Positions 6,789-17,523 of a DNA stretch of 64,000 bases are shown in pieces. The stretch covers positions 23,380 through 87,379 of the forward strand of contig CAVXFA010000054.1 in assembly GCA_963760605.1 (NCBI GenBank), read 5' to 3'. Every line of letters starts with the position of its first letter. Positions within the stretch are counted from its first letter, which is position 1. Origin of the DNA: an uncultured delta proteobacterium. Its GTDB lineage: Bacteria > Desulfobacterota > SM23-61. The translations under genes were made by a program, and so were the position numbers. The notes beneath the pieces were generated by a model, which was not told the origin of the DNA, searched no databases, and saw only the letters and a list, made by a program, of their open reading frames with translations.

Positions 6789-6817
6789 CTCTACATTGCT
6801 AACCTGAGGAACGGGTG

Positions 6818-9790
6818 ATGTCAGATTTTTCGCGTCGGGACTTCTTAAAAGCTGTTTCTCTGACAGGAACCGCCGCAGTCATTGGTTGTTCCTCAGAACC
6901 CGCCAGAAAGCTAATCCCCTACATCTTCCCTCCCCAAGACATCATCCCCGGTGAGGCCACCTGGTATGCGACCACCTGCCGGGAATGCCCGGCCGGGTGC
7001 GGCCTGCTGGCCAAAAACAGGGACGGCCACGTCATAAAAGTAGAGGGAAATCCCCTCCACCCGGTGAATCAGGGGAAACTTTGTGCCCGAGGCCAGGCTG
7101 CGGTACAGGGTCTTTATAATCCGGACCGCTACCGCGGTCCTTTGCAGAAGAAGTCGGACGGGAGCTTCGAACCCATTTCCTGGGAAGCAGCGGAGGATCG
7201 CCTCGTTGAAAAGCTCGTGGAGTTAAAAAAGAAAGGAGGAAGAGACCGCGCCGTCTTCCTGACCGAACTCGTCACGGGCACGCCAAAGAACTTGATCACG
7301 CGCTGGCTCGAAGAACTGGGCACAGGGGGACCTGTTCTCTACGAGCCCTTTGCCTACGAACCCCTGCGGAAGGCCAATGAGGTGGTTTACCGTCTGGGTC
7401 GGATTCCGACCTATTATATCGACCAGGCCGATTTTCTCCTTTCCTTCAGCGCCAATTTCCTGGAGACCTGGCTTTCCAATGTCCAGTATGCCCGCCAGTT
7501 CGCTTCTTTCCATGCGCCAGCGGAAGGGGGCAAGAACCTTTTCATCTATGTGGGGCCCCGGCTCTCTTTGACAGCCGCAAACGCGGACCACTGGATCGCT
7601 GTCTCTCCCGAGAACCAGGCGCTGGTGGCCCTGGGGATCATCCATCTCCTCCTTGAAAAGGGCATTCCTCTGGCCATCAAGGGGGAGCAGAGAGCCGCCC
7701 TGGAGGAGCAGGCCAGAAACCTCTCCCCCGAGACGGTGGAAGGCAGGACGGGGGTGAAAGTCCAGACCCTCCGGATGGTAGCCGAAAATTTCTCTAAGGC
7801 AAAGAGGCCTTTAGCCCTCGCAGAGGGGCTGTTCTGTGCAGATACCCGGGCAACTGAAACGGCTATTGCGGCCAATCTCCTTTGTGCCCTCTCTCCCGAC
7901 GCCAGACAAACCATAGATTTTGACGATCCTTCTTCCCTGGGAGAAGTCGTTCCGGCGGAGACGATGAACGAATTGACGAAGAAAATGTTAAAAGCAGAGA
8001 TTGAATTGCTCCTGATCGATCGGGCCAATCCCCTCTTTCATCTCCCCCCGGCGTGGGAATTCCTCAAAGCCCTCAAAAATGTTCCGATGGTGGTGAGCTT
8101 TTCCAGCTTCCCGGATGAGACGAGCGATCACGCCCACCTGATCTTGCCCACTCACACCTTCCTGGAATCCTGGGGAGATTACAGCCCGAGGAAAAATGTA
8201 GAGGGGCTGCTGCAACCGGTCATGGGGCCGATGTTCAATACGCGGCAGCTGGCTGAGATCCTTCTTTCTACGGGGAAAAAATTGGCCGGGGAGAAAAAGT
8301 TCCCCTGGAAAAATTTCTATGAAATGCTCCGGGCCGAGTGGGCGCAGAAAGGAAAAAGCAAGGGATCATCTGAGACCTTCTGGCAGGAAAGCCTGCAAAG
8401 AGGAGGGACCTGGAGCGCGCGGGGTAAAGAGTTTTTTAGGCCATTATCCGGTTCGTTTAATTTTACCTTCACTCAGCCTCTCTCGTCCCTTCCCGGAAAG
8501 GCAGAGAAGCGTTTCCATTTTGTCAGCTACCCTACTGTTCAGTTCTTTGACGGCCGCAGTGCTAACCGGCCTTTCCTGCAAGAGCTGCCCGACCCCATGA
8601 CCAACATCACCTGGGGAGGATGGGTAGAGATTAACATGGAAACGGCCAAAAAACTGGGGATCTCGCAGGGGGATGTTCTGACCTTGCGGTCGTCGCACGG
8701 ATCCTTGCAGGCTCCGGCTTATCCCTATCCGGGGATTCCCGAGGGAACACTGGCTATGCCTATCGGGCAGGGACATGCGGCCTTTGGCCGCTTCAGTCAA
8801 AGCCGGTCGGGCAACCCTGGGCAGTTGATTTCTCCGAACACCGATCCTAGCTCGGGGGGAATCATCCGGTCGGTCGCGGAAGTGACCGTAGAAAAACTCG
8901 GTCGATCCATTCCTCTGGCCAACACAGATGGCAGCCTTTCCGAGCACGGGCGAAATCTGGTTCAGGCGGTCTCCTGGGAGGAATATCGGGAATGGAAATC
9001 AAAAGGCCCGAAGCCCCCCATTGCGCCGCCTCTTCCCAAAGGATTTTCGCAAAGAGATGATTTCTACAAGCCCCACGTGCATGTGGACTACCGCTGGGCG
9101 ATGGTCGTGGATCTGGATCGCTGCATCGGCTGCGGGGCATGTGTGGTGGCCTGCTATGCGGAAAACAACGTGGCCGTCGTGGGAAAGGAGCAGGTTCTCA
9201 GGGGCCGGGAAATGTCCTGGCTGCATATCGAGCGATACCTCGAGCCGGAGAAATTGGAAGCAAATCAAGAACCCAAGATTCGCTTCCTCCCCATGCTATG
9301 CCAGCATTGTGATGAGGCTCCCTGCGAATCGGTCTGCCCCGTATTCGCCCCCCATCACAGCCGGGAAGGGATTAATAATCAGGTTTACAACCGCTGTATC
9401 GGAACTCGTTTCTGTTCCCAGAACTGTCCCTACAAGGTTCGACGGTTCAACTGGTTCACCTGGACCCGTCCCGAACCGCTTACCTGGCAGCTCAACCCCG
9501 ATGTGACGGTGCGGGAGAAAGGGGTGATGGAGAAATGCTCATTCTGTATCCAGCGGATCGTGGAGACGAAGATCAAAGCCAAAAGCGAGGGCCGAAAGGT
9601 CCGAGATGGAGAGTTTACCACTGCCTGCGCCCAGACCTGTCCGGCTGACGTCTTGATCTTTGGCAACCTCCTGGATCCCGACAGCCAGGTATCCAAACTG
9701 ATTCAGGACCCCCGGGCGTACCAGGTACTGGGTCATCTGAATACGAAGCCGGCAGTTATTTATCTGCAGAAGATAATTCGTAAGTTGTGA
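6818..9790 (+). CDS. actB: Alternative complex III subunit B (Tat-exported molybdopterin-oxidoreductase-like domain plus Fe-S domain)
   Basis: Tat SRRDFLK; CRECPAGC..KLC; C-terminal CIGCGACVVAC, CQHC..PCESVCP, CIGTRFCSQNCP, CSFC..CAQTCP. Confidence 0.9.
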   Translation: MSDFSRRDFLKAVSLTGTAAVIGCSSEPARKLIPYIFPPQDIIPGEATWYATTCRECPAGCGLLAKNRDGHVIKVEGNPLHPVNQGKLCARGQAAVQGLYNPDRYRGPLQKKSDGSFEPISWEAAEDRLVEKLVELKKKGGRDRAVFLTELVTGTPKNLITRWLEELGTGGPVLYEPFAYEPLRKANEVVYRLGRIPTYYIDQADFLLSFSANFLETWLSNVQYARQFASFHAPAEGGKNLFIYVGPRLSLTAANADHWIAVSPENQALVALGIIHLLLEKGIPLAIKGEQRAALEEQARNLSPETVEGRTGVKVQTLRMVAENFSKAKRPLALAEGLFCADTRATETAIAANLLCALSPDARQTIDFDDPSSLGEVVPAETMNELTKKMLKAEIELLLIDRANPLFHLPPAWEFLKALKNVPMVVSFSSFPDETSDHAHLILPTHTFLESWGDYSPRKNVEGLLQPVMGPMFNTRQLAEILLSTGKKLAGEKKFPWKNFYEMLRAEWAQKGKSKGSSETFWQESLQRGGTWSARGKEFFRPLSGSFNFTFTQPLSSLPGKAEKRFHFVSYPTVQFFDGRSANRPFLQELPDPMTNITWGGWVEINMETAKKLGISQGDVLTLRSSHGSLQAPAYPYPGIPEGTLAMPIGQGHAAFGRFSQSRSGNPGQLISPNTDPSSGGIIRSVAEVTVEKLGRSIPLANTDGSLSEHGRNLVQAVSWEEYREWKSKGPKPPIAPPLPKGFSQRDDFYKPHVHVDYRWAMVVDLDRCIGCGACVVACYAENNVAVVGKEQVLRGREMSWLHIERYLEPEKLEANQEPKIRFLPMLCQHCDEAPCESVCPVFAPHHSREGINNQVYNRCIGTRFCSQNCPYKVRRFNWFTWTRPEPLTWQLNPDVTVREKGVMEKCSFCIQRIVETKIKAKSEGRKVRDGEFTTACAQTCPADVLIFGNLLDPDSQVSKLIQDPRAYQVLGHLNTKPAVIYLQKIIRKL

Positions 9791-9812
9791 GTGGGGAGTT
9801 GTGAGTTGCAAG
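9786..9812. repeat. 7-nt-unit array (TGTGAGT), complementary to 17171-17197
   Basis: GAGTTGTGAGTTGCAAG pairs with CTTGCGACTCACGACTC (17 bp, 2 G.U). Confidence 0.6.
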
Positions 9813-9830
9813 AAACGGGGCGTCCTTAAT

Positions 9831-9881
9831 CTTAGGCATTTAAGGCATTTTAGCGCATTTAAGGCATTGGATCTTAGGCAC
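9831..9881. repeat. 9-10-nt-unit array (TTAGGCAT), array A1
   Basis: cttaggcat ttaaggcat tttagcgcat ttaaggcat ... cttaggcac directly before actC. Confidence 0.75.
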
Positions 9882-9886
9882 CTGCC

Positions 9887-11224
9887 ATGGAACATCTCAG
9901 TTACAAAGATGTGAATCGGGAAATACTGCGGACGCTATCTGCAGCTCCTCGGTATTATTATCTCATCGTGGCGCTTTTATTTCTCGGGATTCTTTGGGCG
10001 GCTATCTGCTGGGGCTACCAGATCCTTACAGGTTTGGGTGTTACAGGGCTCTTGCACCCAACGATGTGGATTCTCTACCTGGTCAACTTCGTCTTCTGGA
10101 TAGGGATCGCCCATTCGGGCACTCTGATTTCCGCCATCCTTTATCTCTTCCGGGCCAGATGGCGCACGGCCATTGCCCGCAGCTCCGAGGCCATGACCGT
10201 TTTTGCTGTGATGATTGCGGGCCTGTTCGTTTTCATCCACCTGGGGCGACCCTGGATCTTCTACTGGATTATCCCCTATCCTAACGAACGAACCTTGTGG
10301 CCAGATTTTCAATCCCCCCTGATCTTTGATTTTCTGGCTGTTTCCACTTATCTTACGGTAAGCGTCCTTTTCTGGTTTACCGGGCTTGTCCCAGACCTGG
10401 CCGCAGTACGGGACCGGGCTCGGGGAATCCGGCAGAAGATTTACGGTTTCTTTTCCCTGGGCTGGACAGGGACAGACCGTCAATGGCACCATTACGGCGC
10501 CGCTTACCTTCTGCTGGCGGGCCTGGCCACTCCCCTGGTCGTCTCGGTGCACAGCGTGGTTTCCTGGGACTTCGCGCTGGCCATCATTCCTGGATACCAC
10601 AGCACGATCTTCGCCCCTTACTTCGTAGCCGGTGCGATTCATTCTGGCCTGGCCATGGTTCTCACCCTATTGATCCCCCTGCGGCGTATTTTTCGCTTCG
10701 AAAAGATCATCACCCTCAAAGACCTTGAGTCCATCGCTAAAACTACCATCCTTACCGGGCTCATCATCGGCTATTCCTACATCATCGAATATTTCATGGC
10801 CTGGTACAGCGGGAATATCTTTGAAAGACAGACTTTCATCTTCCGGGCCATCGGCCATTATTCGTTCATGTTTTGGCTCATGGTGGTCTGCAACGCGGTG
10901 GCCCCGCTCTTCTTCTTCTTCAAGAAAATTCGAACCCACCCTGGGTTCCTCTTCACCATCGCGGTTCTCATTAATATCGGCATGTGGACCGAACGTTTTG
11001 TGATCATCATCGGGTCCATGGCCCAGGACTTCATCCCTTACCAGTGGGGTTTTTACTCCCCCCGCTGGGTGGAACTTAGCATTACCGTGGGATCTTTCTG
11101 CCTGTTCCTGTTCCTTTTTCTCCTCTTTGCAAAATTCCTCCCTTCGGTCTCCATCGCCGAGGTCAAGGAGGATCTTACCCCTTCCCATAGGGGAAAAGGA
11201 AAGCGAGACCACCATGGCGCATGA
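9887..11224 (+). CDS. actC: Alternative complex III subunit C (NrfD/PsrC family)
   Basis: NFVFWIGIAHSGTLISAIL, HLGRPW, VHSVVSWDFA, GMWTERF. Confidence 0.92.
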   Translation: MEHLSYKDVNREILRTLSAAPRYYYLIVALLFLGILWAAICWGYQILTGLGVTGLLHPTMWILYLVNFVFWIGIAHSGTLISAILYLFRARWRTAIARSSEAMTVFAVMIAGLFVFIHLGRPWIFYWIIPYPNERTLWPDFQSPLIFDFLAVSTYLTVSVLFWFTGLVPDLAAVRDRARGIRQKIYGFFSLGWTGTDRQWHHYGAAYLLLAGLATPLVVSVHSVVSWDFALAIIPGYHSTIFAPYFVAGAIHSGLAMVLTLLIPLRRIFRFEKIITLKDLESIAKTTILTGLIIGYSYIIEYFMAWYSGNIFERQTFIFRAIGHYSFMFWLMVVCNAVAPLFFFFKKIRTHPGFLFTIAVLINIGMWTERFVIIIGSMAQDFIPYQWGFYSPRWVELSITVGSFCLFLFLFLLFAKFLPSVSIAEVKEDLTPSHRGKGKRDHHGA

Positions 11225-11726
11225 TCCCGCACTGCTGGGCATTTTCCCCTATCTGGATGAACTACTGGATGCTCTGAGGAAGCTGAAAAAGGCAGAATGT
11301 AAGGTTCTTACGGTATTCTCCCCCATTCATTTTTCTGAGATCCAGGAAGTCATGGGGTATAAACCAAGCCCCGTCAGATATTTCATCCTTGCCGGCGGAA
11401 TTCTGGGAGGCGCCAGCCTGGTGAGCCTGGCCGCTTACGCCCATCTAAGTTTTAAATTAATCACCAGCGGTAAACCCGTGTTGCCCCCCATCCCTTTTAT
11501 CGTGCCCTTATTCGAGGGCACTGTCCTCCTGGCGGTTATCTTTGGCGTGGTCGCCTGGGTGCTTAAGGGCCGACTGCCGCGGGTCCACCTACCCAGCGCC
11601 TATGATCCCCGTTTTTCCGAGGACCGTTTCGGAATCGTGGCCGCTTACAAAGATGGGGAACGCGATATAATTTTAAAACTCCTGCAGGATGCAGGAGCTG
11701 AAGAGGTCCGGGATGTCAACGGGTGA
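11214..11726 (+). CDS. actD: Alternative complex III subunit D (DUF3341)
   Basis: VFSPIH, SGKP, FEGTVL, YDPRFSEDRFGI; start overlaps the actC stop. Confidence 0.85.
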   Translation: MAHDPALLGIFPYLDELLDALRKLKKAECKVLTVFSPIHFSEIQEVMGYKPSPVRYFILAGGILGGASLVSLAAYAHLSFKLITSGKPVLPPIPFIVPLFEGTVLLAVIFGVVAWVLKGRLPRVHLPSAYDPRFSEDRFGIVAAYKDGERDIILKLLQDAGAEEVRDVNG

Positions 11727-12957
11727 AAACCTCCATCATCAGCCAGCCCCCCGAATTTCACCCGTTTGGACGGCACTCTTCGCCCTCCTCGCCCTCATCG
11801 GGTTGATTGCTTTTCTTCTGGGGATTTATGGGCCTCATTCTCAAAGAGCCTGGCAGGCCTATTTGATCAATTATGTTTTTTGGACTGGACTCTCCTTCGG
11901 GGCGGTGTTGTTCGTGGCCGTCTTGAACATGGCCGACGCCATGTGGGGGCGTCCCTTAAAGCGACTGGCCGAGGCCCTTGGAGCTTTCCTGCCCGCCTCT
12001 TTCCTTCTCTTCTGGGTTCTGTACTTGGGTCGGCAAGAGATCTTTCCCTGGGTGCGGCAGCCGAACCCAGAGAAGCAGATCTGGCTGAATGCCGGGTTTA
12101 TGTTTGCCCGGAATGGAGTGGGTCTCTTTCTGCTCACCGCCCTTTCTTTGGCTCTGATTTATTATTCCGTAAGAGGAGACAAAGAAATGGCCCGCCGCCT
12201 GAACGGGATCGTTCCGGTTAACCACGTTGTCGATGCAAATGAAGAGACCTGCTGGCGGGCTCAGCGGGTGCTCTCTCCGATCATAGGAATTGTTTACGCC
12301 TTTGTCTTAAGCTTCCTGGCCTTTGATCTGATCATGTCTCTTGATCCCCACTGGTACAGCACCCTCTTTGGGGCCTATTATTTCATGTCCAGCTTTTACA
12401 CTGCGTTGGCCGCTTTGTATCTTCTTTCCCCAATATCCCTGAAGGCCCGTGGCCTGAGCGAAACCATTCACGCCCATCACCTCCATGACCTGGGAAAGCT
12501 TGTTTTCGCCTTTTGCCTGTTCACCGGCTATCTCTTCTATACCCAGTTCCTGGTGATCTGGTATGGCAACCTTCCGGAAGAAACCCGTTATATCATCTTA
12601 CGACTCCGTTTCACGCCGTGGGAACCCATAGCCTGGATTATTCTGGCGACGATTTTCGTCATTCCCTTTATCGTGCTTCTGAGTCGAAAGATCAAAATGA
12701 AACCGGTGGCGATGATGATCATCAGCGGAATGATCCTCGTGGGAATGTGGTTGGAACGATTCATCCTGGTGGCCCCTTCGATTTGGAAGGGGGAAGGGCT
12801 CCCGATCGGGCCGATGGAAGTCTTGATTACTGCGGGATTTTTCGGGATTCTGGCCCTGAGTTTGGTTATCTTTCTCAGGAGGGTTCCCCTGCTACCGATC
12901 TCCGATCCGCTTTTCCGAAAGTCCATCGAACCACACGAAGAAAAGGAGAAACCCTGA
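11713..12957 (+). CDS. actF: Alternative complex III subunit F (second NrfD-like membrane subunit)
   Basis: RAWQAYLIN, WGRPLKRLAE, MSLDPHWYSTLFG, QFLVIWYGNLPEE. Confidence 0.85.
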   Translation: MSTGENLHHQPAPRISPVWTALFALLALIGLIAFLLGIYGPHSQRAWQAYLINYVFWTGLSFGAVLFVAVLNMADAMWGRPLKRLAEALGAFLPASFLLFWVLYLGRQEIFPWVRQPNPEKQIWLNAGFMFARNGVGLFLLTALSLALIYYSVRGDKEMARRLNGIVPVNHVVDANEETCWRAQRVLSPIIGIVYAFVLSFLAFDLIMSLDPHWYSTLFGAYYFMSSFYTALAALYLLSPISLKARGLSETIHAHHLHDLGKLVFAFCLFTGYLFYTQFLVIWYGNLPEETRYIILRLRFTPWEPIAWIILATIFVIPFIVLLSRKIKMKPVAMMIISGMILVGMWLERFILVAPSIWKGEGLPIGPMEVLITAGFFGILALSLVIFLRRVPLLPISDPLFRKSIEPHEEKEKP

Positions 12958-12967
12958 GAAGGGATGA

Positions 12968-13036
12968 AAGTACCTAACGTGCGCTAAAATGCCTGACATG
13001 CGCTAAAGTGTTCTTAATTAGAAATGCCTAAAGTTG
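12968..13036. repeat. 9-10-nt-unit array (ATGCCTAAA), array A2; its last unit contains the actA ATG
   Basis: TGCGCTAAAATGCCT (12980-12994) is the exact reverse complement of 9843-9857. Confidence 0.75.
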
Positions 13037-13566
13037 ACTCAGAAAACACAGCAATAAAACCTGGACGGGGATTTATCTGGCTGGGGATTGTGGCAATTTT
13101 TTTTGCCGTCATGTTATATTTTATATACTTCTATCCCCAGCGAGATATTGGCCCGCAGCAGCCAATTTATTTCAGTCACCGGGTCCATGCAGGGGAGAAA
13201 GAGATCCACTGTCGCTTCTGTCATCCCTTCGTGGAACGGTCCCCGAATGCCGGCATTCCGCCCATGGAAAAATGTTTCTTTTGTCATGACTATATTATTC
13301 CCATGCACCCGCAGATCCTCAAAGAAAAGGAGCACTACGAAGCGAAAAAACCCGTTCCCTGGGTGCGTATTTACTGGGTCCCCGACTTCGTTTTTTTCAA
13401 CCACATCCCCCATATCAAATGGGCGAAGCTCGATTGTACCGAATGCCATGGGGATGTGAAAAGGATGGACCGGCTGCGCCCGGTGAAATTCCAGATGGGG
13501 TTTTGCATTGGCTGTCATCGAAAAAGAGGAGCGCAGGTAGATTGCTGGCTGGCGTGTCACCGTTAG
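13024..13566 (+). CDS. actA: Membrane-anchored pentahaem cytochrome c, ACIII subunit A / QrcA-like
   Basis: N-terminal TM, PQQPIYFSHRVHAG, four CxxCH plus a terminal CWLACH. Confidence 0.88.
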   Translation: MPKVDSENTAIKPGRGFIWLGIVAIFFAVMLYFIYFYPQRDIGPQQPIYFSHRVHAGEKEIHCRFCHPFVERSPNAGIPPMEKCFFCHDYIIPMHPQILKEKEHYEAKKPVPWVRIYWVPDFVFFNHIPHIKWAKLDCTECHGDVKRMDRLRPVKFQMGFCIGCHRKRGAQVDCWLACHR

Positions 13567-13567
13567 A

Positions 13568-13616
13568 AGTGCCTAAAGTGAGCTAAAATGCCTGAAGTGC
13601 CTAAAGTGCACTAAAG
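13568..13616. repeat. 9-10-nt-unit array (GTGCCTAAA), array A3
   Basis: 13568-13607 is the reverse complement of 14160-14199 at 36/40 positions. Confidence 0.8.
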
Positions 13617-13764
13617 TACTAAGGAGTCTATAATTGACCAGACATATTCTTCCAAAATCTCCCCTGACCCCTCTTTTCCAAAGAGGGGAAATTCCTCCCT
13701 TTTGTAAAGGGAGGGAAGGAGGGATTTGGTCTTCGGTGTCTATATAATTATGGACTGACTAATA
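13617..13764. mobile_element. 148-bp MITE, TA-bounded, copy 1
   Basis: Near-identical inverted copy at 37146-37293; imperfect TIRs TACTAAGGAGTCTATAATT / AATTATGGACTGACTAATA; internal CCCCTCTTT..AAAGAGGGG palindromes. Confidence 0.8.
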
Positions 13765-13766
13765 AA

Positions 13767-14123
13767 ATGAATAATAGACAATTTGCTCAAAAGCTAGAAA
13801 AACGAACACGCGATTTTGCGGTGAGGATGATTCGGTTGGCTGCAACTCTACCGAACACGCCAGAGGGCAAATTAATAAGGGAGCAAAAAACCAAGTCAGC
13901 AACCTCGATAGGTGCCAATTACCACGAAGCCAATCGGTCAAGGAGTAAGGCCGATTTCAGAAATAAGATCGATATTTGTGAAAGTGAGGCGAGCGAAACC
14001 AAACATTGGATAGAGATTATTTCAGATTTGCAGTGGCTGCCAAAGGAACAACTGAAACCAGAACATGAGGAAGGTAGCGAACTACTGGCTATCTTTACTT
14101 CCATTAGCAAAAAGTGTAAGTAA
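13767..14123 (+). CDS. Four helix bundle protein (23S rRNA intervening-sequence protein / Avd-like family)
   Basis: LEKRTRDFAVRMI..SATSIGANYHEA..SKADFRNKIDICESEASET..W. Confidence 0.85.
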   Translation: MNNRQFAQKLEKRTRDFAVRMIRLAATLPNTPEGKLIREQKTKSATSIGANYHEANRSRSKADFRNKIDICESEASETKHWIEIISDLQWLPKEQLKPEHEEGSELLAIFTSISKKCK

Positions 14124-14130
14124 TGTGTTA

Positions 14131-14200
14131 CTCAACTTTAGGCACTCTGGGCACTTTGAACTTTAGGCACTTTAGGCACTCTAGCGCACTTTAGGCACTC
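14131..14200. repeat. 9-10-nt-unit array (TTTAGGCAC), array A4
   Basis: About seven units immediately before the ccoN ATG; inverted relative to A2 and A3. Confidence 0.8.
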
Positions 14201-14205
14201 TCATC

Positions 14206-15600
14206 ATGGAGCAACAGGGGAGAACGATATTGCCGCCACTTCACGAAGGGACTTATGCAACGGTGAGAGGGTTTTTTGTCACTTCAGCCTCCTGGTTTGT
14301 GGGCGCGACTGTGGCCGGGATCATCATGGCGATCGCTCTGGTGGCGCCGGATTTCATAAGAAATATCCCCTGGCTTGTTTTTGGAAGAATTCGCCCCATC
14401 CACACCAACGTGATGATCTTTGGCTTCGTCGGCTCAGCTCTGCTGGGTGCGACCCACTTCCTAGTCCCCACTCTGGTCCGTGCCCCTCTTTATAGCGAAA
14501 AGATCGGCCGGATCACATTATGGATATGGAATCTGGCCCTGGCCGCCGGTACCGTTACCCTCGCCTTGGGCTACACTCAGAGCCGGGAGTATGCCGAATG
14601 GATCTGGCCGGTAGACCTCATGGTTCTCCTCTCCTTTTCCCTGATGTTTTACAACCTGCTAAGGACCGTCATCCTGCGCCAGGAAAAACTTCTCTACGTC
14701 TCCGTCTGGTATGCTTTCGCGGCCCTGATCTTCACCTTCTTTATTTACTTTTTCGGAAACGCCGTCTGGAATCCGGCCACCGGCGCCATCACCGGCATGC
14801 CGGATGCGATCCTGGCTTGGTTTTACGGCCACGGGATCGTTGGCCTGTTCCTCACCCCCCTGGCCGTGGGCGTGGCGTACTATGTCATCCCCATCGTCAG
14901 CCGCGCCCCACTCTTCAGCCATGCCCTGTCGCTTCTCGGTTTCTGGTCAATCCTCATGTTCTATCCTCATATCGGCACCCATCACCTTCTGCAGACCCCG
15001 GCCCCGACCTGGTTGAAGGTAGTGGCGATTACCGGAAGTATCGGCATGCTCATCCCCGTCCAGACCGTCCTGTTGAATCTCTGGTTGACTCTACGGGGCC
15101 GGCTGGGAAATATTCATGCGGACATTGGCGGAAAATTCGTCTTTGCCGGGCTGGTCTGGTACATGCTGGTCTGCCTCCAGGGCCCCCTACAATCCCTGCC
15201 CTATGTCCAGCGATTGACCCATCTGACTAACTGGGTGGTTGCCCATGCCCACATTGCGGTTTTGGGATTTTCCGGATTCATTGGACTGGGCGGGGTCTAT
15301 TTCATCATCCCCAGAATTACGGGGCGCCCCCTCTACAGCAACAAGCTGGCGGACATTCAGTACTGGTTGATCCTCATCGGGCTCACTGGATTTTTTCTCG
15401 TCCTGACGACTGCTGGCCTCATTCAGGGGAACGGGTGGTTGAATGGAGAAGTGGTTTACAGAATCTTGCCCCAAATATATGTCTATTTCTTTTTGCGGGC
15501 TTCTTTGGGAATTCTCATCGTCGGCGGAGCCGTCATCGGCCTCTACAATATTTTAAGAAGCCTGTATGGGTCCCATCCGAGTGAGGATCGTTCCCTATGA
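14206..15600 (+). CDS. ccoN: cbb3-type (family C) haem-copper oxidase subunit I
   Basis: GRIRPIHTN, SREYAE, WFYGHG, FYPHIGTHHLL, WVVAHAH: all six His ligands and the helix VII Tyr are present. Confidence 0.92.
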   Translation: MEQQGRTILPPLHEGTYATVRGFFVTSASWFVGATVAGIIMAIALVAPDFIRNIPWLVFGRIRPIHTNVMIFGFVGSALLGATHFLVPTLVRAPLYSEKIGRITLWIWNLALAAGTVTLALGYTQSREYAEWIWPVDLMVLLSFSLMFYNLLRTVILRQEKLLYVSVWYAFAALIFTFFIYFFGNAVWNPATGAITGMPDAILAWFYGHGIVGLFLTPLAVGVAYYVIPIVSRAPLFSHALSLLGFWSILMFYPHIGTHHLLQTPAPTWLKVVAITGSIGMLIPVQTVLLNLWLTLRGRLGNIHADIGGKFVFAGLVWYMLVCLQGPLQSLPYVQRLTHLTNWVVAHAHIAVLGFSGFIGLGGVYFIIPRITGRPLYSNKLADIQYWLILIGLTGFFLVLTTAGLIQGNGWLNGEVVYRILPQIYVYFFLRASLGILIVGGAVIGLYNILRSLYGSHPSEDRSL

Positions 15601-16547
15601 AAATGACTCTGAACCTGCTCGTCTATGGAAGTCTGATGATCTTTGCTTCGATCCTGGCGGTTGCCGTAATCCTCCCCTGGGCCACGATGAGCGATAAACC
15701 ATCGGAGATTTTCCGCGAAAGGACGGCACTGGAGGAGGAGGGGCGGAAGATCTACATTGCCAATGGCTGCACCTATTGCCATACCCAGTTCATCCGCTAT
15801 CTGGACTGGGATTTGGGAGCGGAGAGAATCGCCCGGGCGGGAGACTATATCCGGGAACAGCCTCACCTTCTGGGCTCGGAGCGCACCGGCCCGGACCTTT
15901 CTCAGGAAGGGGGAGAGCATCCGGATGATTGGCATATGGCCCATTACACCAACCCGCGTTTTACCCGGCCCGAATCCCTGATGCCGTCCTTTGAATTTTT
16001 GGGGAAAGAGAAGATTAAGGCCCTCATCGCCTACAAGCAAAGTTTGGGATTCAAGGATGCGGACCTCCGGGTCGAGCGGCAGCGCTTCTGGAAGCAAAAG
16101 GCCATCGAAGCTTACCAGGCTGGCCCGGACAAAAATATCGAATGGCTGCATTCTAAGGTTCCCGAACCCTGGAGAAAATTGCCCAACCCTTTCCCCACCT
16201 CCGAAGCCGGTCTGAAACGGGGCCACCGTATATACCAGAGCTTTTGTATCGGATGCCATGGGCCGATCGGTGACGGCATGGGATCGGCCGAGCCTTACCT
16301 GTACCCCCCCCCGCTGAATTTCACGCTGCTAGCAGGGAGGGGAATTTCCGGGGGGATTCTCTATTATCAGATTATGAACGGGATCACCGGCACGGCCATG
16401 CCCTATTTCAAAAGGGAGCTGGAGTCGGAGAAGATTTGGGATGTAGGCAATTACGTGGCCGTGAATTTCATCGGCGAATCCGATGCCGGAGCGGAACCCA
16501 GGGGCATTGCCGCCGCCTTTCAACCCCCGGTGAAAGGTGAAAAGTAA
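15597..16547 (+). CDS. ccoO: cbb3 oxidase subunit II fused to a second cytochrome c domain (di-haem)
   Basis: GCTYCHTQFIR, GSERTGPDL, SLMP; second domain CIGCHG..GTAMP. Confidence 0.88.
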   Translation: MKMTLNLLVYGSLMIFASILAVAVILPWATMSDKPSEIFRERTALEEEGRKIYIANGCTYCHTQFIRYLDWDLGAERIARAGDYIREQPHLLGSERTGPDLSQEGGEHPDDWHMAHYTNPRFTRPESLMPSFEFLGKEKIKALIAYKQSLGFKDADLRVERQRFWKQKAIEAYQAGPDKNIEWLHSKVPEPWRKLPNPFPTSEAGLKRGHRIYQSFCIGCHGPIGDGMGSAEPYLYPPPLNFTLLAGRGISGGILYYQIMNGITGTAMPYFKRELESEKIWDVGNYVAVNFIGESDAGAEPRGIAAAFQPPVKGEK

Positions 16548-16548
16548 T

Positions 16549-16809
16549 ATGTACTATCTTTCCTGGATCGTTCTGGTGGTCATTAGTTTGTGGGTCAGCG
16601 TCGTCGGCTTTATCTGGGCGCTCAAGAGCGGACAATTTTCCGATCAGAGTAGAGCCCGGTATCTTCCGCTGCGAGATGATTTTCCTTTACCTCCGGTGAA
16701 GAATCCGGCAAAATTCTCTGCCGAAGTTTATTTCCTTCTGGCGGTCCTGGGAATTGGGTGTTCCATTTTGCTCGTTGTCCTGATCCTGACGTTTGTCCAT
16801 TCTAAGTGA
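16549..16809 (+). CDS. ccoS: cbb3 oxidase assembly protein CcoS with an extra C-terminal TM helix
   Basis: FIWALKSGQFSD motif. Confidence 0.8.
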   Translation: MYYLSWIVLVVISLWVSVVGFIWALKSGQFSDQSRARYLPLRDDFPLPPVKNPAKFSAEVYFLLAVLGIGCSILLVVLILTFVHSK

Positions 16810-16820
16810 GGAAAGAAGCC

Positions 16821-17099
16821 ATGCGGTTTTTTTACGTCCTGGATTTTCAATACCTGATTCTGGCGCTCTTCTTCGGCATCATTTCGGTCTTTCTCATTTA
16901 TTTGGGATTCATGAGCTATCGCTTCTCCCAGAAAAGAAAAGAGGAGGGTGAGACCGCCGAAGAACGTTATGAATACCCCGGCGGGCTGCGGATTCAGAAC
17001 CATCCCCTTCCCCCGTTTTTGATTTTTATTTGTCTGGGATTTGCCCTTTGGGCCATCGCCTACGTGATTTTGATCGGCCTGCGGGGAGGACCTTTCTAA
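16821..17099 (+). CDS. Small two-TM membrane protein of the cco cluster
   Basis: Two hydrophobic helices flank EYPGGLRIQNHPLP; operon position. Confidence 0.7.
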   Translation: MRFFYVLDFQYLILALFFGIISVFLIYLGFMSYRFSQKRKEEGETAEERYEYPGGLRIQNHPLPPFLIFICLGFALWAIAYVILIGLRGGPF

Positions 17100-17170
17100 A
17101 TACAGGGATGAGTGAAGTGTGATGAACGATGAGTAACGAATGACAAATGAAAAATAAGGATGATTAACGA

Positions 17171-17197
17171 CTTGCGACTCACGACTCAGGACTTACG
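17171..17197. repeat. 7-nt-unit array (ACGACTC), complementary to 9786-9812
   Basis: cttgcgactc acgactc aggactt acg. Confidence 0.6.
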
Positions 17198-17226
17198 AAA
17201 AATCCCCTCTGCGAATAGAGTGACGA

Positions 17227-17523
17227 GTGATGAGGGATGAGTTAAAACAAGGCATGGAGTCCAGAAGCCAGGGAAACAAAACAGACTTGCGCAGCTGGAT
17301 GATCATTCTAGCGATCGCCATTCTATTCTTCTGCTATGGTCTTTTCATGTTTCTGGCGGTTGGAGATAAAGGCCCACCCGGCTGGGATTTCGGTGTCGTG
17401 GAGGATGTTCCTGGAGAATCCGCTTATTCCACGCATCCCCCGGGGGCTCCGGAGCCAGAGCCGCAACACGTCTCCCAGAAGCCGCCGCAAGCTGAGATTA
17501 ACGTGAGTAAGGAAAACCCATGA
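17227..17523 (+). CDS. Small single-TM membrane protein of the cco cluster (start may be 17254)
   Basis: TM helix followed by VGDKGPPGWDFGVVEDVPGESAYS; stop overlaps the next start. Confidence 0.65.
   Translation: MMRDELKQGMESRSQGNKTDLRSWMIILAIAILFFCYGLFMFLAVGDKGPPGWDFGVVEDVPGESAYSTHPPGAPEPEPQHVSQKPPQAEINVSKENP

What the first reader, a model, noticed from the sequence alone, without database searches (positions are those of the whole stretch)
9786..17197. Nested long-range complementary repeat 'brackets' around gene groups of the ACIII-cbb3 operon
Seen: short-unit arrays at gene junctions have specific distant partners. The outer pair, 9786-9812 with 17171-17197, forms 17 bp plus 7 bp whose non-Watson-Crick positions are all G.U on the sense strand, spanning 7.4 kb. 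Inside it, 9843-9857 pairs perfectly (15 bp) with 12980-12994, enclosing actC-D-F, and 13568-13607 pairs with 14160-14199 (36/40), enclosing the four-helix-bundle gene. The pairs nest without crossing and abut stop and start codons; the actA ATG lies inside a unit. Inference: an RNA-level system resembling rRNA processing stems that could segment, protect or compact a long polycistronic mRNA and set subunit stoichiometry, or scars of a repeat-guided mobile cassette. This is my best candidate for an undescribed system. Caveat: tandem units allow alternative pairings (e.g. A2 with A4).
Basis: partly seen in the sequence, partly recalled or inferred. Interest (0 to 1): 0.85.

Follow-up and report, generated by a model that had tools for sequence, protein, structure and literature searches.

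The report
Repeat-flanked selfish gene cassette inside operon
The innermost "bracket" marks the two ends of a small selfish gene cassette, of the kind known from ribosomal RNA genes, lodged between two respiratory genes, while the two larger brackets look like incidental matches between scattered repeat arrays.

Summary
The arrays and all three complementary pairs exist at the stated coordinates. They do not form one nested system.

**Inner pair (13568-13607 / 14160-14199).** These are the terminal inverted arrays of an intervening-sequence-like cassette. It carries a PF05635 gene (23S-rRNA-IVS protein, S23p/Avd-like four-helix bundle) and sits between the ActA-like cytochrome gene and ccoN.
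- The cassette occupies the same junction in 5 of 8 relatives. In the 3 relatives without the gene, the arrays are missing too.
- The two arms co-vary within each genome.
- The genome's only other PF05635 gene is flanked by inverted heptamer arrays.
- Flank complementarity beats every shuffle in 64 of 77 PF05635 loci from many phyla. These loci are mostly sense-oriented in short spacers between genes.

**Outer and second pairs.** These are matches between solo arrays of locally shared families.
- Relatives do not conserve them (0 of 6 and 0 of 7).
- Contigs about 98-99% identical to the window lack the right arm of the outer pair.
- Genome-wide, an array's best partner lies nearby as a direct repeat as often as an inverted one (9 versus 7 of 454).

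No G.U bias was found. Cleavage of the cassette stem by RNase III is inferred by analogy with ribosomal IVSs. No RNA data were available.

The parts
13567..13622 (+). Upstream terminal array of the cassette: 9/10-nt units of the AAGTGCCTA family. It starts directly after the stop codon of the ActA-like cytochrome gene (13564-13566).
   Evidence: It pairs with 14134-14201 in the minimum-energy fold. The same array type follows the ActA-like stop in 5 relatives.
13617..13765 (+). MITE-like dispersed repeat with its own hairpin, lying inside the cassette between the upstream array and the PF05635 start codon.
   Evidence: 52 BLAST hits in the genome, 50 of them at least 120 nt long. One contig each in runs X1 and X2 joins 13587 to 13763, skipping 175 nt. 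It forms a separate hairpin.
13767..14123 (+). PF05635 gene (23S rRNA intervening-sequence protein, S23p, Avd-like four-helix bundle), 118 aa. This is the cassette's cargo.
   Evidence: Pfam E 1e-17. PDB 2RLD E 3.4e-17. Homologues sit at the same junction in relatives, intact in G008 and G007 (64-65% identity).
14134..14201 (+). Downstream terminal array: the same unit family in reverse complement (TAGGCACTT type). It ends 5 nt before the ATG at 14206 and 25 nt before an alternative TTG at 14227.
   Evidence: (36/40 with 13568-13607). The downstream arm was read in 4 of the 5 IVP-bearing relatives; L007 ends at a contig end.
9832..9880 (+). Solo array of the same 9/10-nt family (TAGGCAT orientation) just upstream of the actC ATG (9887).
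   Evidence: Its inverted matches to 12980-12994 and to 13582-13604 score the same 30.2 bits, and four inverted hits on other contigs score higher. A like array precedes actC only in G008.
12963..13036 (+). Solo, degenerate array of the same family (AAATGCCT / GCGCTAA orientation) between the actF stop (12955-12957) and the ActA-like start (13024, inside a unit). It is the right arm of the second pair.
   Evidence: No array of this family lies at this junction in any of 7 relatives.
9783..9812 (+). Heptamer array (GAGTTGT type) overlapping the ActB stop codon. It is the left arm of the outer pair.
   Evidence: Local RNA fold of the junction is unstructured, z +1.97.
17107..17242 (+). Three heptamer arrays in one spacer: 17107-17150 (GATGAGT type), 17167-17198 (ACGACTC type, right arm of the outer pair) and 17218-17242 (GAGTGAT type).
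   Evidence: One contig each in X1 and X2 skips 87 nt between 17140 and 17228, removing the middle array. Local fold is weak, z +0.73.

Best explanation
Positions 13567-14201 are one inserted cassette. It consists of an array of 9/10-nt units, a PF05635 gene (plus a later MITE insertion), and the same array in reverse complement. It sits in the spacer between the ActA-like cytochrome gene and ccoN, in the sense orientation and with no promoter-like site predicted on its coding strand within the cassette (inferred to lack its own promoter).

It is the protein-operon counterpart of the S23p-bearing intervening sequences of 23S rRNA. Shown here: the architecture, its conservation, the co-variation of its arms, and its generality across PF05635 genes.

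Inferred: the cassette is co-transcribed with the operon, and its arms close a duplex of about 43 bp around a loop of about 550 nt. RNase III would then cut this duplex, as it cuts rRNA IVS stems, separating the ACIII part of the transcript from the cbb3 part and releasing the cassette RNA.

The other junction arrays (9783-9880, 12963-13036, 17107-17242) are solo arrays of the same or similar unit families. Such families cluster locally in either orientation. The outer and second 'brackets' are by-products of that family sharing, not a maintained structure.
For: **This locus and its relatives**
- Fold of 13540-14230: MFE -220.7 kcal/mol, z -6.5, 0 of 20 shuffles as good. The two arrays form the closing stem.
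- The gene is PF05635.
- Of 8 relatives holding the operon, 5 carry a PF05635 gene at the ActA/CcoN junction. All 5 have the family array after the ActA stop, and the 4 whose downstream side is on the contig have the reverse-complement array before ccoN. The 3 without the gene have a short junction with no arrays.
- Stems are 43-47 columns long: 197 matches, 13 mismatches and 10 gaps over 5 genomes.
- Unit variants differ between genomes but match between the two arms of one genome. The own-genome duplex is best in 5 of 5 rows and 3 of 5 columns.
- Among 18 cassettes of this clade, the own partner is best in 10 of 18 rows and 7 of 18 columns. Mean score is 53.0 against 32.9, and 0 of 10,000 permutations reach it.
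- The arrays persist where the ORF is frameshifted (G013, G003).

**Generality**
- The genome's only other PF05635 gene lies between an upstream ORF and an ABC ATPase gene. It is flanked by inverted heptamer arrays with an 18-nt perfect core.
- In 77 PF05635 loci from many phyla, flank complementarity exceeds all 20 shuffles in 64, against 8 for the direct orientation. Inverted beats direct in 73 of 77.
- Of the 53 loci scoring at least 34, 46 have periodic arms: period 7 in 33, period 9 in 8, period 10 in 3, period 8 in 2.
- All 11 loci with 9-10-nt units encode proteins at least 54% identical to the window protein. All 35 with 7-8-nt units are at most 51% identical.
- Neighbour strands: both sense in 47 of 74, both antisense in 3 of 74. 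Median gaps are 71 and 80 nt.
- Control: of 1,227 genes of 90-200 aa in this genome, 6 score at least 34, and both PF05635 genes are among them.

**Outer and second pairs as by-products**
- No comparable complementarity in relatives: scores 12-22 against 35 and 41. The one exception, 40 in L002, comes from a non-array, MITE-like repeat present in both junctions.
- One contig each in X1 and X2, 98-99% identical alongside, lacks 17141-17227.
- Best partner within 10 kb: inverted 12 and direct 19 of 441 by BLAST; inverted 7 and direct 9 of 454 by RNA energy, with 2.4 expected.
- Adjacent spacers share 13-mers or longer in 1.38% of pairs in each orientation, against about 0.3-0.4% for random pairs.

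**Literature (passages read)**
- The Coxiella 23S IVS has a 28-bp terminal inverted-repeat stem, is cut by RNase III in vitro, carries tandem heptamers in its 5' arm, and has a decaying S23p ORF (PMC4990558).
Against: - No RNA evidence at all. No RNA run holds the locus, so co-transcription and cleavage are untested.
- Stem mismatches show no bias toward G.U on the sense strand: 88 against 83, with 324 transversions, in 55 loci; 6 against 3 in the five related genomes. This fits concerted DNA-level evolution, or arrays kept as protein-binding units, as well as it fits a selected RNA stem.
- By RNA energy the outer pair is the best partner genome-wide for both arms, and both its junctions are locally unstructured. 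Long-range pairing is therefore not excluded thermodynamically.
- The family has far more arrays than PF05635 genes: 15 double-unit matches against 2 genes in this genome, and 129 against 6 in G013. Most arrays are therefore not cassette ends today, and their origin is unexplained.
- No target-site duplication or mobility mechanism was identified.
- The 80 loci are the best matches to my query alignment and come mostly from metagenome bins. They are neither random nor independent.
Confidence: 0.8

Rival explanations
1. The arrays act mainly as DNA (or single-strand) binding sites, not as an RNA stem. Each arm would be a row of about five units read by a multimeric protein. That protein could be the PF05635 product itself or a host nucleoid or regulator protein, as at transposon ends or as in the 'global regulator sites' proposed for Geobacter. 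Under this reading the RNA duplex is a side effect. It can coexist with the cassette model and differs only in what the arms are for.
For: - No G.U over A.C bias, and mostly transversion mismatches, in 55 stems.
- Unit type tracks protein clade across phyla: 11 of 11 against 35 of 35.
- Matched arms hold a median of 4.9 units, IQR 3.9-5.8, with 5 the commonest value (15 of 46).
- S23p of Xanthomonas is reported as a homopentamer (passage in PMC4990558), and PDB 2RLD has 5 chains.
- Aklujkar 2009 read paired tandem-repeat sites on opposite strands as regulator or IHF/HU sites (PMC2700814 passages).
- Solo arrays greatly outnumber PF05635 genes.
Against: - No binding data exist.
- Arrays stay intact where the local ORF is frameshifted, although other copies exist in those genomes.
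- rRNA IVS stems are experimentally RNase III substrates (PMC4990558).
- The unit count is a rough figure: aligned arm length divided by period.
Confidence: 0.3
2. One reading: the three nested pairs are a maintained RNA-level bracket system that segments, protects or compacts the long ACIII-cbb3 transcript and sets subunit stoichiometry.
For: - All three pairs exist.
- Their RNA duplex energies rank 1st, 3rd and 1st of 906 candidate array strands.
- All four non-Watson-Crick pairs of the outer duplex are G.U on the sense strand (my reading of the strings).
- The outer arms lie in locally unstructured spacers.
- Seven of 454 arrays have their best complementary partner within 10 kb, against 2.4 expected.
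Against: - Direct-repeat partners are enriched just as much: 9 of 454, 19 against 12 of 441, and equal rates.
- The outer and second pairs are not found in 6 and 7 relatives.
- Related-strain contigs in two runs lack the right outer arm.
- There is no G.U bias in the best-supported stems.
- The left arm of the second pair matches 13582-13604 as well as its proposed partner.
Confidence: 0.06
3. All the arrays, including the inner pair, are ordinary replication-slippage microsatellites at AT-rich spacers. Their complementarity is chance.
For: - The genome holds 604 merged intergenic arrays and about 800 unit types among period 7-10 TRF rows.
- Array copy number and presence vary between close strains.
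Against: - The inner architecture recurs at the same junction in 5 relatives with matched unit changes.
- It recurs around the genome's other PF05635 gene and in 64 of 77 loci from many phyla.
- Only 4 of 1,225 other small genes in this genome show such flanks.
Confidence: 0.03

Closest known systems
S23p-bearing intervening sequences (IVS) of 23S rRNA (Leptospira, Coxiella, Xanthomonas-type S23p)
   Same: - A PF05635 ORF enclosed by terminal inverted repeats that form a long stem.
- Carried passively inside a host transcript.
- The ORF is often decaying.
- The Coxiella arm contains tandem heptamers (PMC4990558, passages read).
   Different: - Here the element sits in a spacer between protein-coding genes, not in an rRNA helix.
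- 0 of 80 related loci lie in rRNA.
- The arms are whole arrays of 5-7 units of 9-10 nt.
- RNase III cleavage is not shown here.
Paired tandem-repeat 'global regulator binding sites' of Geobacter metallireducens (Aklujkar et al. 2009, PMC2700814)
   Same: - Pairs of sites on opposite strands at a variable distance.
- Each site is 3-5 tandem units of 7-9 nt.
- They lie in intergenic spacers inside operons, for example between proB and proA (passages read).
   Different: - They were read as protein-binding sites.
- The passages I saw do not say what lies between the two sites of a pair.
- The tables that would show this are supplements, which were closed.
PF05635 genes reported inside cas operons (Zhang, Doak and Ye 2013, PMC3936711; also listed in a legend of PMC10910872)
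   Same: A PF05635 gene wedged between two genes of an operon, for example between cmr3 and cmr2 (passage read).
   Different: It was interpreted as a functional CRISPR association. No flanking arrays are mentioned in the passages I saw.
Avd of diversity-generating retroelements
   Same: Homologous four-helix-bundle protein family (PMC10053308 passage).
   Different: The neighbours here are a cytochrome gene and ccoN. I saw no reverse transcriptase or template/variable repeat pair at the locus and did not search for one further out.
MITEs, TIR transposons and REPINs
   Same: Inverted termini, multicopy families, presence/absence differences between relatives.
   Different: - No transposase or RAYT-type gene is linked.
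- The termini are tandem arrays rather than unique inverted repeats.
- No target-site duplication was established.
Cyanobacterial STRR heptamer arrays (recalled; only search listings seen)
   Same: Tandem heptamers in intergenic spacers, with many unit types per genome.
   Different: To my recollection they are not described as inverted pairs around a PF05635 gene. I did not test this.

Membership tests
S23p-type intervening sequence (IVS) | Encodes a PF05635 / S23p protein | tested here: met
   Pfam E 1e-17; PDB 2RLD E 3.4e-17.
S23p-type intervening sequence (IVS) | Terminal inverted repeats forming a stem that encloses the ORF | tested here: met
   36/40 complementarity. The closing stem appears in the MFE fold, z -6.5. 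Stems span 43-47 columns in 5 genomes.
S23p-type intervening sequence (IVS) | Inserted in a helix of 23S (or 16S) rRNA | tested here: not met
   It lies between the ActA-like cytochrome gene and ccoN. No rRNA match in 80 related loci.
S23p-type intervening sequence (IVS) | Excised from the host transcript by RNase III without religation | not testable with these tools
   No RNA run holds the locus. This needs RNA end mapping or an in vitro assay.
TIR transposon / MITE | Inverted termini plus target-site duplication, and a transposase (autonomous copy) somewhere | tested here: inconclusive
   Inverted termini are present. By eye I found no consistent duplication at the cassette borders. No transposase is linked. 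The cassette and its arrays are present or absent together in relatives.
CRISPR array | Direct repeats of about 25-40 nt separated by unique spacers of similar length | tested here: not met
   Units are 7-10 nt, head to tail, with no spacers.
   Inverted 7 against direct 9 of 454. The outer and second pairs are not found in relatives. G.U 88 against A.C 83.

The most novel reading that the evidence does not exclude
PF05635 cassettes would be a pan-bacterial class of promoter-less selfish elements. They would colonise any highly transcribed spacer: between genes of an operon, next to tRNA genes, or in rRNA helices. Their ends would be inverted arrays of about five short units, read unit by unit by the ring-shaped (pentameric) PF05635 protein, in the way TRAP reads triplet repeats. 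The hundreds of solo short-unit arrays at gene junctions in this bacterial family, and perhaps STRR-like arrays elsewhere, would be footprints or non-autonomous derivatives of such cassettes. Because the arms form RNase III-type stems, the elements would split host polycistronic RNAs wherever they land.
Probability: 0.25. Interest if true: 0.85.

Novelty: new variant of a known kind. Interest (0 to 1): 0.6.

Why it matters
S23p/IVS elements have been known since the early 1990s, yet their protein has no known function and their mobility is unexplained. PF05635 genes are annotated in thousands of genomes as orphan 'four helix bundle proteins', and they have twice been read as CRISPR-associated.

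These genes turn out to be sense-oriented inserts between genes, bounded by inverted tandem arrays whose unit type follows the protein clade. That result does three things:
- It gives the family a concrete, testable architecture.
- It links rRNA IVSs to elements inside protein-coding operons.
- It explains odd 'associations' as passive insertion.

For this locus, it predicts a processing site exactly at the ACIII/cbb3 boundary. It also warns against reading complementarity between repeat arrays as designed long-range RNA structure.

Tried and rejected
- No RNA holder was listed for the locus, so expression, transcript ends and processing could not be examined.
- Only Logan contigs of DNA runs were laid. 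Its many short-sided joints (sides 20-26 nt) between about 13587-13617 and about 14137-14162 in X4 and X5 probably come from other loci or organisms with the same array family. I did not use them.
- RNA duplexfold on whole junctions of relatives was dominated by sequence length and was discarded in favour of an ungapped helix score.
- The first cross-locus null was inflated because many loci share the same unit family. It was replaced by shuffles and the direct-orientation control.
- The promoter/terminator scan of 9700-17400 gave counts within shuffle expectation and nothing at the arrays on the coding strand.
- The local fold of the 17095-17260 spacer showed no strong hairpin. My early idea that the right outer arm is sequestered locally was dropped.
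- The 87-nt strain-variable segment is not a dispersed element: its only full-length BLAST hit is itself (slice offset by a few bases).
- G.U bias tests were negative.
- I considered CRISPR, REP/BIME and terminator readings and rejected them on unit size and layout.
- Literature searches found no paper describing PF05635 genes flanked by inverted tandem arrays in protein-coding operons. The library lacks most subscription journals, including the original Leptospira IVS papers. The Geobacter supplements that may list what lies between paired sites were closed.
- The orientation tendency of solo arrays (AAGTGCCTA reading after stops, reverse reading before starts) is my reading by eye with crude gene calls. 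I treat it as a lead only.

Full report
**1. What is there**

The window lies in a 3.96-Mb, 111-contig genome. Positions 6815-17523 hold one co-directional gene row:
- ActB (6815-9790)
- ActC (9887-11224)
- ActD (11127-11726)
- ActF (11689-12957)
- an ActA-like multihaem cytochrome (13024-13566)
- CcoN (14206-15600)
- a CcoO/P fusion (15597-16547)
- small ORFs

All three complementary pairs check out:
- Outer pair: 17 bp, a 3-nt loop, then 7 bp, with four G.U pairs (my reading of the strings; -36.9 kcal/mol).
- Second pair: 15/15.
- Inner pair: 36/40.

**2. Genome-wide background**

- TRF finds 1,755 rows in the genome. Of 302 period-7 rows, 188 are mostly intergenic, although crude gene calls cover 83% of the genome.
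- Merging gives 604 intergenic arrays. There are 798 canonical unit types among period 7-10 rows.
- The 9/10-nt family of the inner pair forms 22 intergenic clusters by a simple pattern. A few more were found by eye and BLAST.
- A double-unit pattern of this family occurs 15 times in this genome. It occurs in 12 of 16 genomes of the same bacterial family (129 times in G013) and in only 2 of 24 genomes of other families of the phylum. The reversed control pattern never matches.

**3. Is there a bracket rule?**

No.
- Adjacent spacers share exact words of 13 nt or more about four times more often than random spacer pairs. The rate is the same for direct and inverted matches: 1.38% each, against 0.30-0.37%. 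At two to six spacers apart, direct matches are equal or commoner.
- For 441 arrays with a scorable hit, the best inverted BLAST hit lies within 10 kb for 12, and the best direct hit for 19.
- With RNA duplex energies, which allow G.U, the figures are 7 and 9 of 454, with 2.4 expected.

Array families therefore cluster locally in both orientations. This is what local spread or copying gives, not selection for pairing. The few other nearby inverted pairs enclose ordinary genes, for example two ribosomal protein genes on C58.

**4. The outer and second pairs**

By RNA energy they rank 1st and 3rd of 906 candidate array strands. Both outer junctions are locally unstructured. I therefore cannot exclude pairing on thermodynamic grounds.

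Three results argue against a maintained structure:
- Eight relatives of the same phylum hold the same operon; seven are of the same bacterial family, and ActF identity ranges from 51 to 70%. In those with the junctions on the contig, the best helix scores 12-22 for both junction pairs, against 35 and 41 in the window. This covers 7 relatives for ActB/ActC with ActF/ActA and 6 for ActB/ActC with the downstream spacer. The single exception, 40 in L002, is a non-array, MITE-like repeat present in both junctions.
- In two peat runs, one contig each joins 17140 to 17228, removing the right outer arm. These contigs have 15-18 other letters per 1.06-1.14 kb alongside.
- The left arm of the second pair matches 13582-13604 as well as it matches its proposed partner, and four inverted hits on other contigs score higher.

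**5. The inner pair is different**

RNA folding of 13540-14230 gives a closing stem between the two arrays around the whole spacer. Inside it are a separate hairpin for the dispersed repeat at 13617-13765 and the ORF (MFE -220.7, z -6.5).

Evidence from the relatives:
- A PF05635 gene sits between the ActA-like gene and ccoN in G013, G003, G008, G007 and G011. Each has the family array directly after the ActA stop. Where the contig continues (4 of 5), the reverse-complement array lies before ccoN.
- G005, G004 and G040 lack the gene. They have a junction of a few tens of nt with no arrays.
- The arms form 43-47-column stems: 197 matches, 13 mismatches and 10 gaps in all.
- The unit variant changes between genomes (for example AAGTGCC, AAATGCC, TCAAGTGCC) and changes on both arms together. 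The own-genome duplex is best in 5 of 5 rows and 3 of 5 columns.
- In an 18-cassette set of this clade, the own partner is best in 10 rows and 7 columns. Mean score is 53.0 against 32.9, and no permutation of 10,000 reaches it.
- The arrays remain where the ORF is frameshifted (G013, G003).

**6. It is a property of the gene family**

- The genome has one other PF05635 gene. It lies between an upstream ORF and an ABC ATPase gene. It is flanked by inverted arrays of a different, 7-nt unit with an 18-nt perfect core.
- A scan of one genome per species with an alignment of four of these proteins returned 490 relatives. I kept the 80 best loci, from Desulfobacterota, Bacteroidota, Planctomycetota, Acidobacteriota, Chloroflexota, Patescibacteria and others.
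- In the 77 loci with enough flank, complementarity between the 250-nt flanks exceeds all 20 dinucleotide shuffles in 64. The same flanks compared directly do so in 8. Inverted beats direct in 73.
- Of the 53 loci scoring at least 34, 46 have periodic arms, mostly heptamers (33), then 9-mers (8), 10-mers (3) and 8-mers (2).
- All 11 loci with 9-10-nt units encode proteins at least 54% identical to the window protein. All 35 with 7-8-nt units are at most 51% identical.
- The gene is co-directional with both neighbours in 47 of 74 loci and antisense to both in 3. Median gaps are 71 and 80 nt, about the size of the arrays. Examples read by eye show arrays starting at the upstream stop codon and ending before the next start.
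- None of the 80 loci is in an rRNA gene, and two abut tRNA genes. Metagenome bins often lack rRNA operons, so this count is biased.
- As a control, 6 of 1,227 genes of 90-200 aa in this genome have such flanks. Two of the six are the PF05635 genes, and two are spurious ORFs inside long repeats.

**7. Mechanism**

Shown: a cassette of array, PF05635 ORF and inverted array, inserted sense-wise between genes. It comes and goes as a unit and has co-evolving arms.

Inferred:
- It is co-transcribed. No promoter-like site on its coding strand lies within the cassette.
- Its arms pair in the transcript.
- RNase III cuts the duplex, as documented for 23S IVSs. The Coxiella IVS has a 28-bp terminal stem, is cut by RNase III in vitro, and has tandem heptamers in its 5' arm (PMC4990558, passages read).

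Here this would uncouple the ACIII and cbb3 parts of the mRNA.

Against a selected RNA stem: mismatches show no sense-strand G.U excess (88 against 83) and are mostly transversions (324). An alternative, not exclusive, is that the units are binding sites. Matched arms hold a median of 4.9 units, and S23p-type proteins are reported as pentamers (PMC4990558 passage; 2RLD has 5 chains). That link is speculative.

**8. Comparison with what is known**

- S23p-bearing IVSs of 23S rRNA are the closest kind. This element fails the defining 'inside rRNA' feature, so it is a variant rather than a member.
- Aklujkar et al. 2009 described 24, 21 and 8 pairs of opposite-strand sites made of tandem 8-, 9- and 7-nt units in Geobacter metallireducens and read them as regulator sites (PMC2700814, passages). 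Whether PF05635 genes lie between them is in supplements I could not open.
- PF05635 genes between cas genes have been read as CRISPR-associated (PMC3936711 passage; figure legend of PMC10910872). Passive insertion between genes explains this more simply.
- Searches found no description of the architecture reported here.

**9. Verdict**

- The 'nested bracket system' is not supported.
- The inner bracket is the signature of an IVS-like PF05635 cassette. Its generality across phyla is the worthwhile result.
- Processing by RNase III, and any role of the protein, remain to be tested.

Noticed in passing
window 13617-13765: A MITE-like dispersed repeat with terminal inverted ends and its own hairpin. 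It has 52 BLAST hits in the genome, 50 nearly full length. One contig each in runs X1 and X2 lacks it together with part of the upstream array (joint 13587 to 13763).
   Followed up: partly
window 17141-17227: An 87-nt segment holding the ACGACTC-type array is missing in one contig each of runs X1 and X2. This leaves one continuous array of the opposite orientation. The segment has no other copy in the genome.
   Followed up: partly
window 14206-14230: The real ccoN start may be the TTG at 14227, preceded by GGGGAG, rather than the ATG at 14206. Relatives align from residues 6-17 and start with TTG CCx CCA after a GAGAGG-type site.
   Followed up: no
G000 contigs C71, C79, C2, C6 (arrays listed): Five arrays of the 9/10-nt family are adjoined by a shared sequence of about 35 nt containing a TATAAAAT-like box. 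Read on the TAGGCAC strand, it would place the array at the start of a transcript. This is a possible promoter-plus-leader module.
   Followed up: no
G000:C40:77700-77815: One array of the family lies directly next to a tRNA gene on the opposite strand, that is, upstream of the tRNA. Two PF05635 loci from other phyla (L043, L072) abut tRNA genes.
   Followed up: no
G000:C70:10794-10872 (L010): An 'empty' version between two co-directional genes: an array right after a stop codon, a loop of about 37 nt, then the reverse-complement array 18 nt before the next start, with no ORF between.
   Followed up: no
G000:C82:1240-1659: A 140-aa ORF is one of only four non-PF05635 small genes with complementary flanks (score 45). 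Its start resembles DUF559-type endonuclease-like proteins; that resemblance is from recall and was not tested.
   Followed up: no
G000:C8:798-895 and 9567-9625: The strongest long-range complementary array pair in the genome (-62.6 kcal/mol, 8.7 kb apart, GCGCATA-type units). It encloses about nine mixed-strand ORFs.
   Followed up: partly
L001 5600-5790; L003 5925-6065: Relatives show local array hairpins (units, a loop, then reverse-complement units) at other junctions of the same operon. Their unit types are different (AAGGTTG-type, GCGCATA-type).
   Followed up: no
G013 (whole genome): One relative holds 129 double-unit matches of the 9-nt family against 6 PF05635 matches. Copy number of the family varies from 0 to 129 among 16 genomes of one bacterial family.
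   Followed up: no
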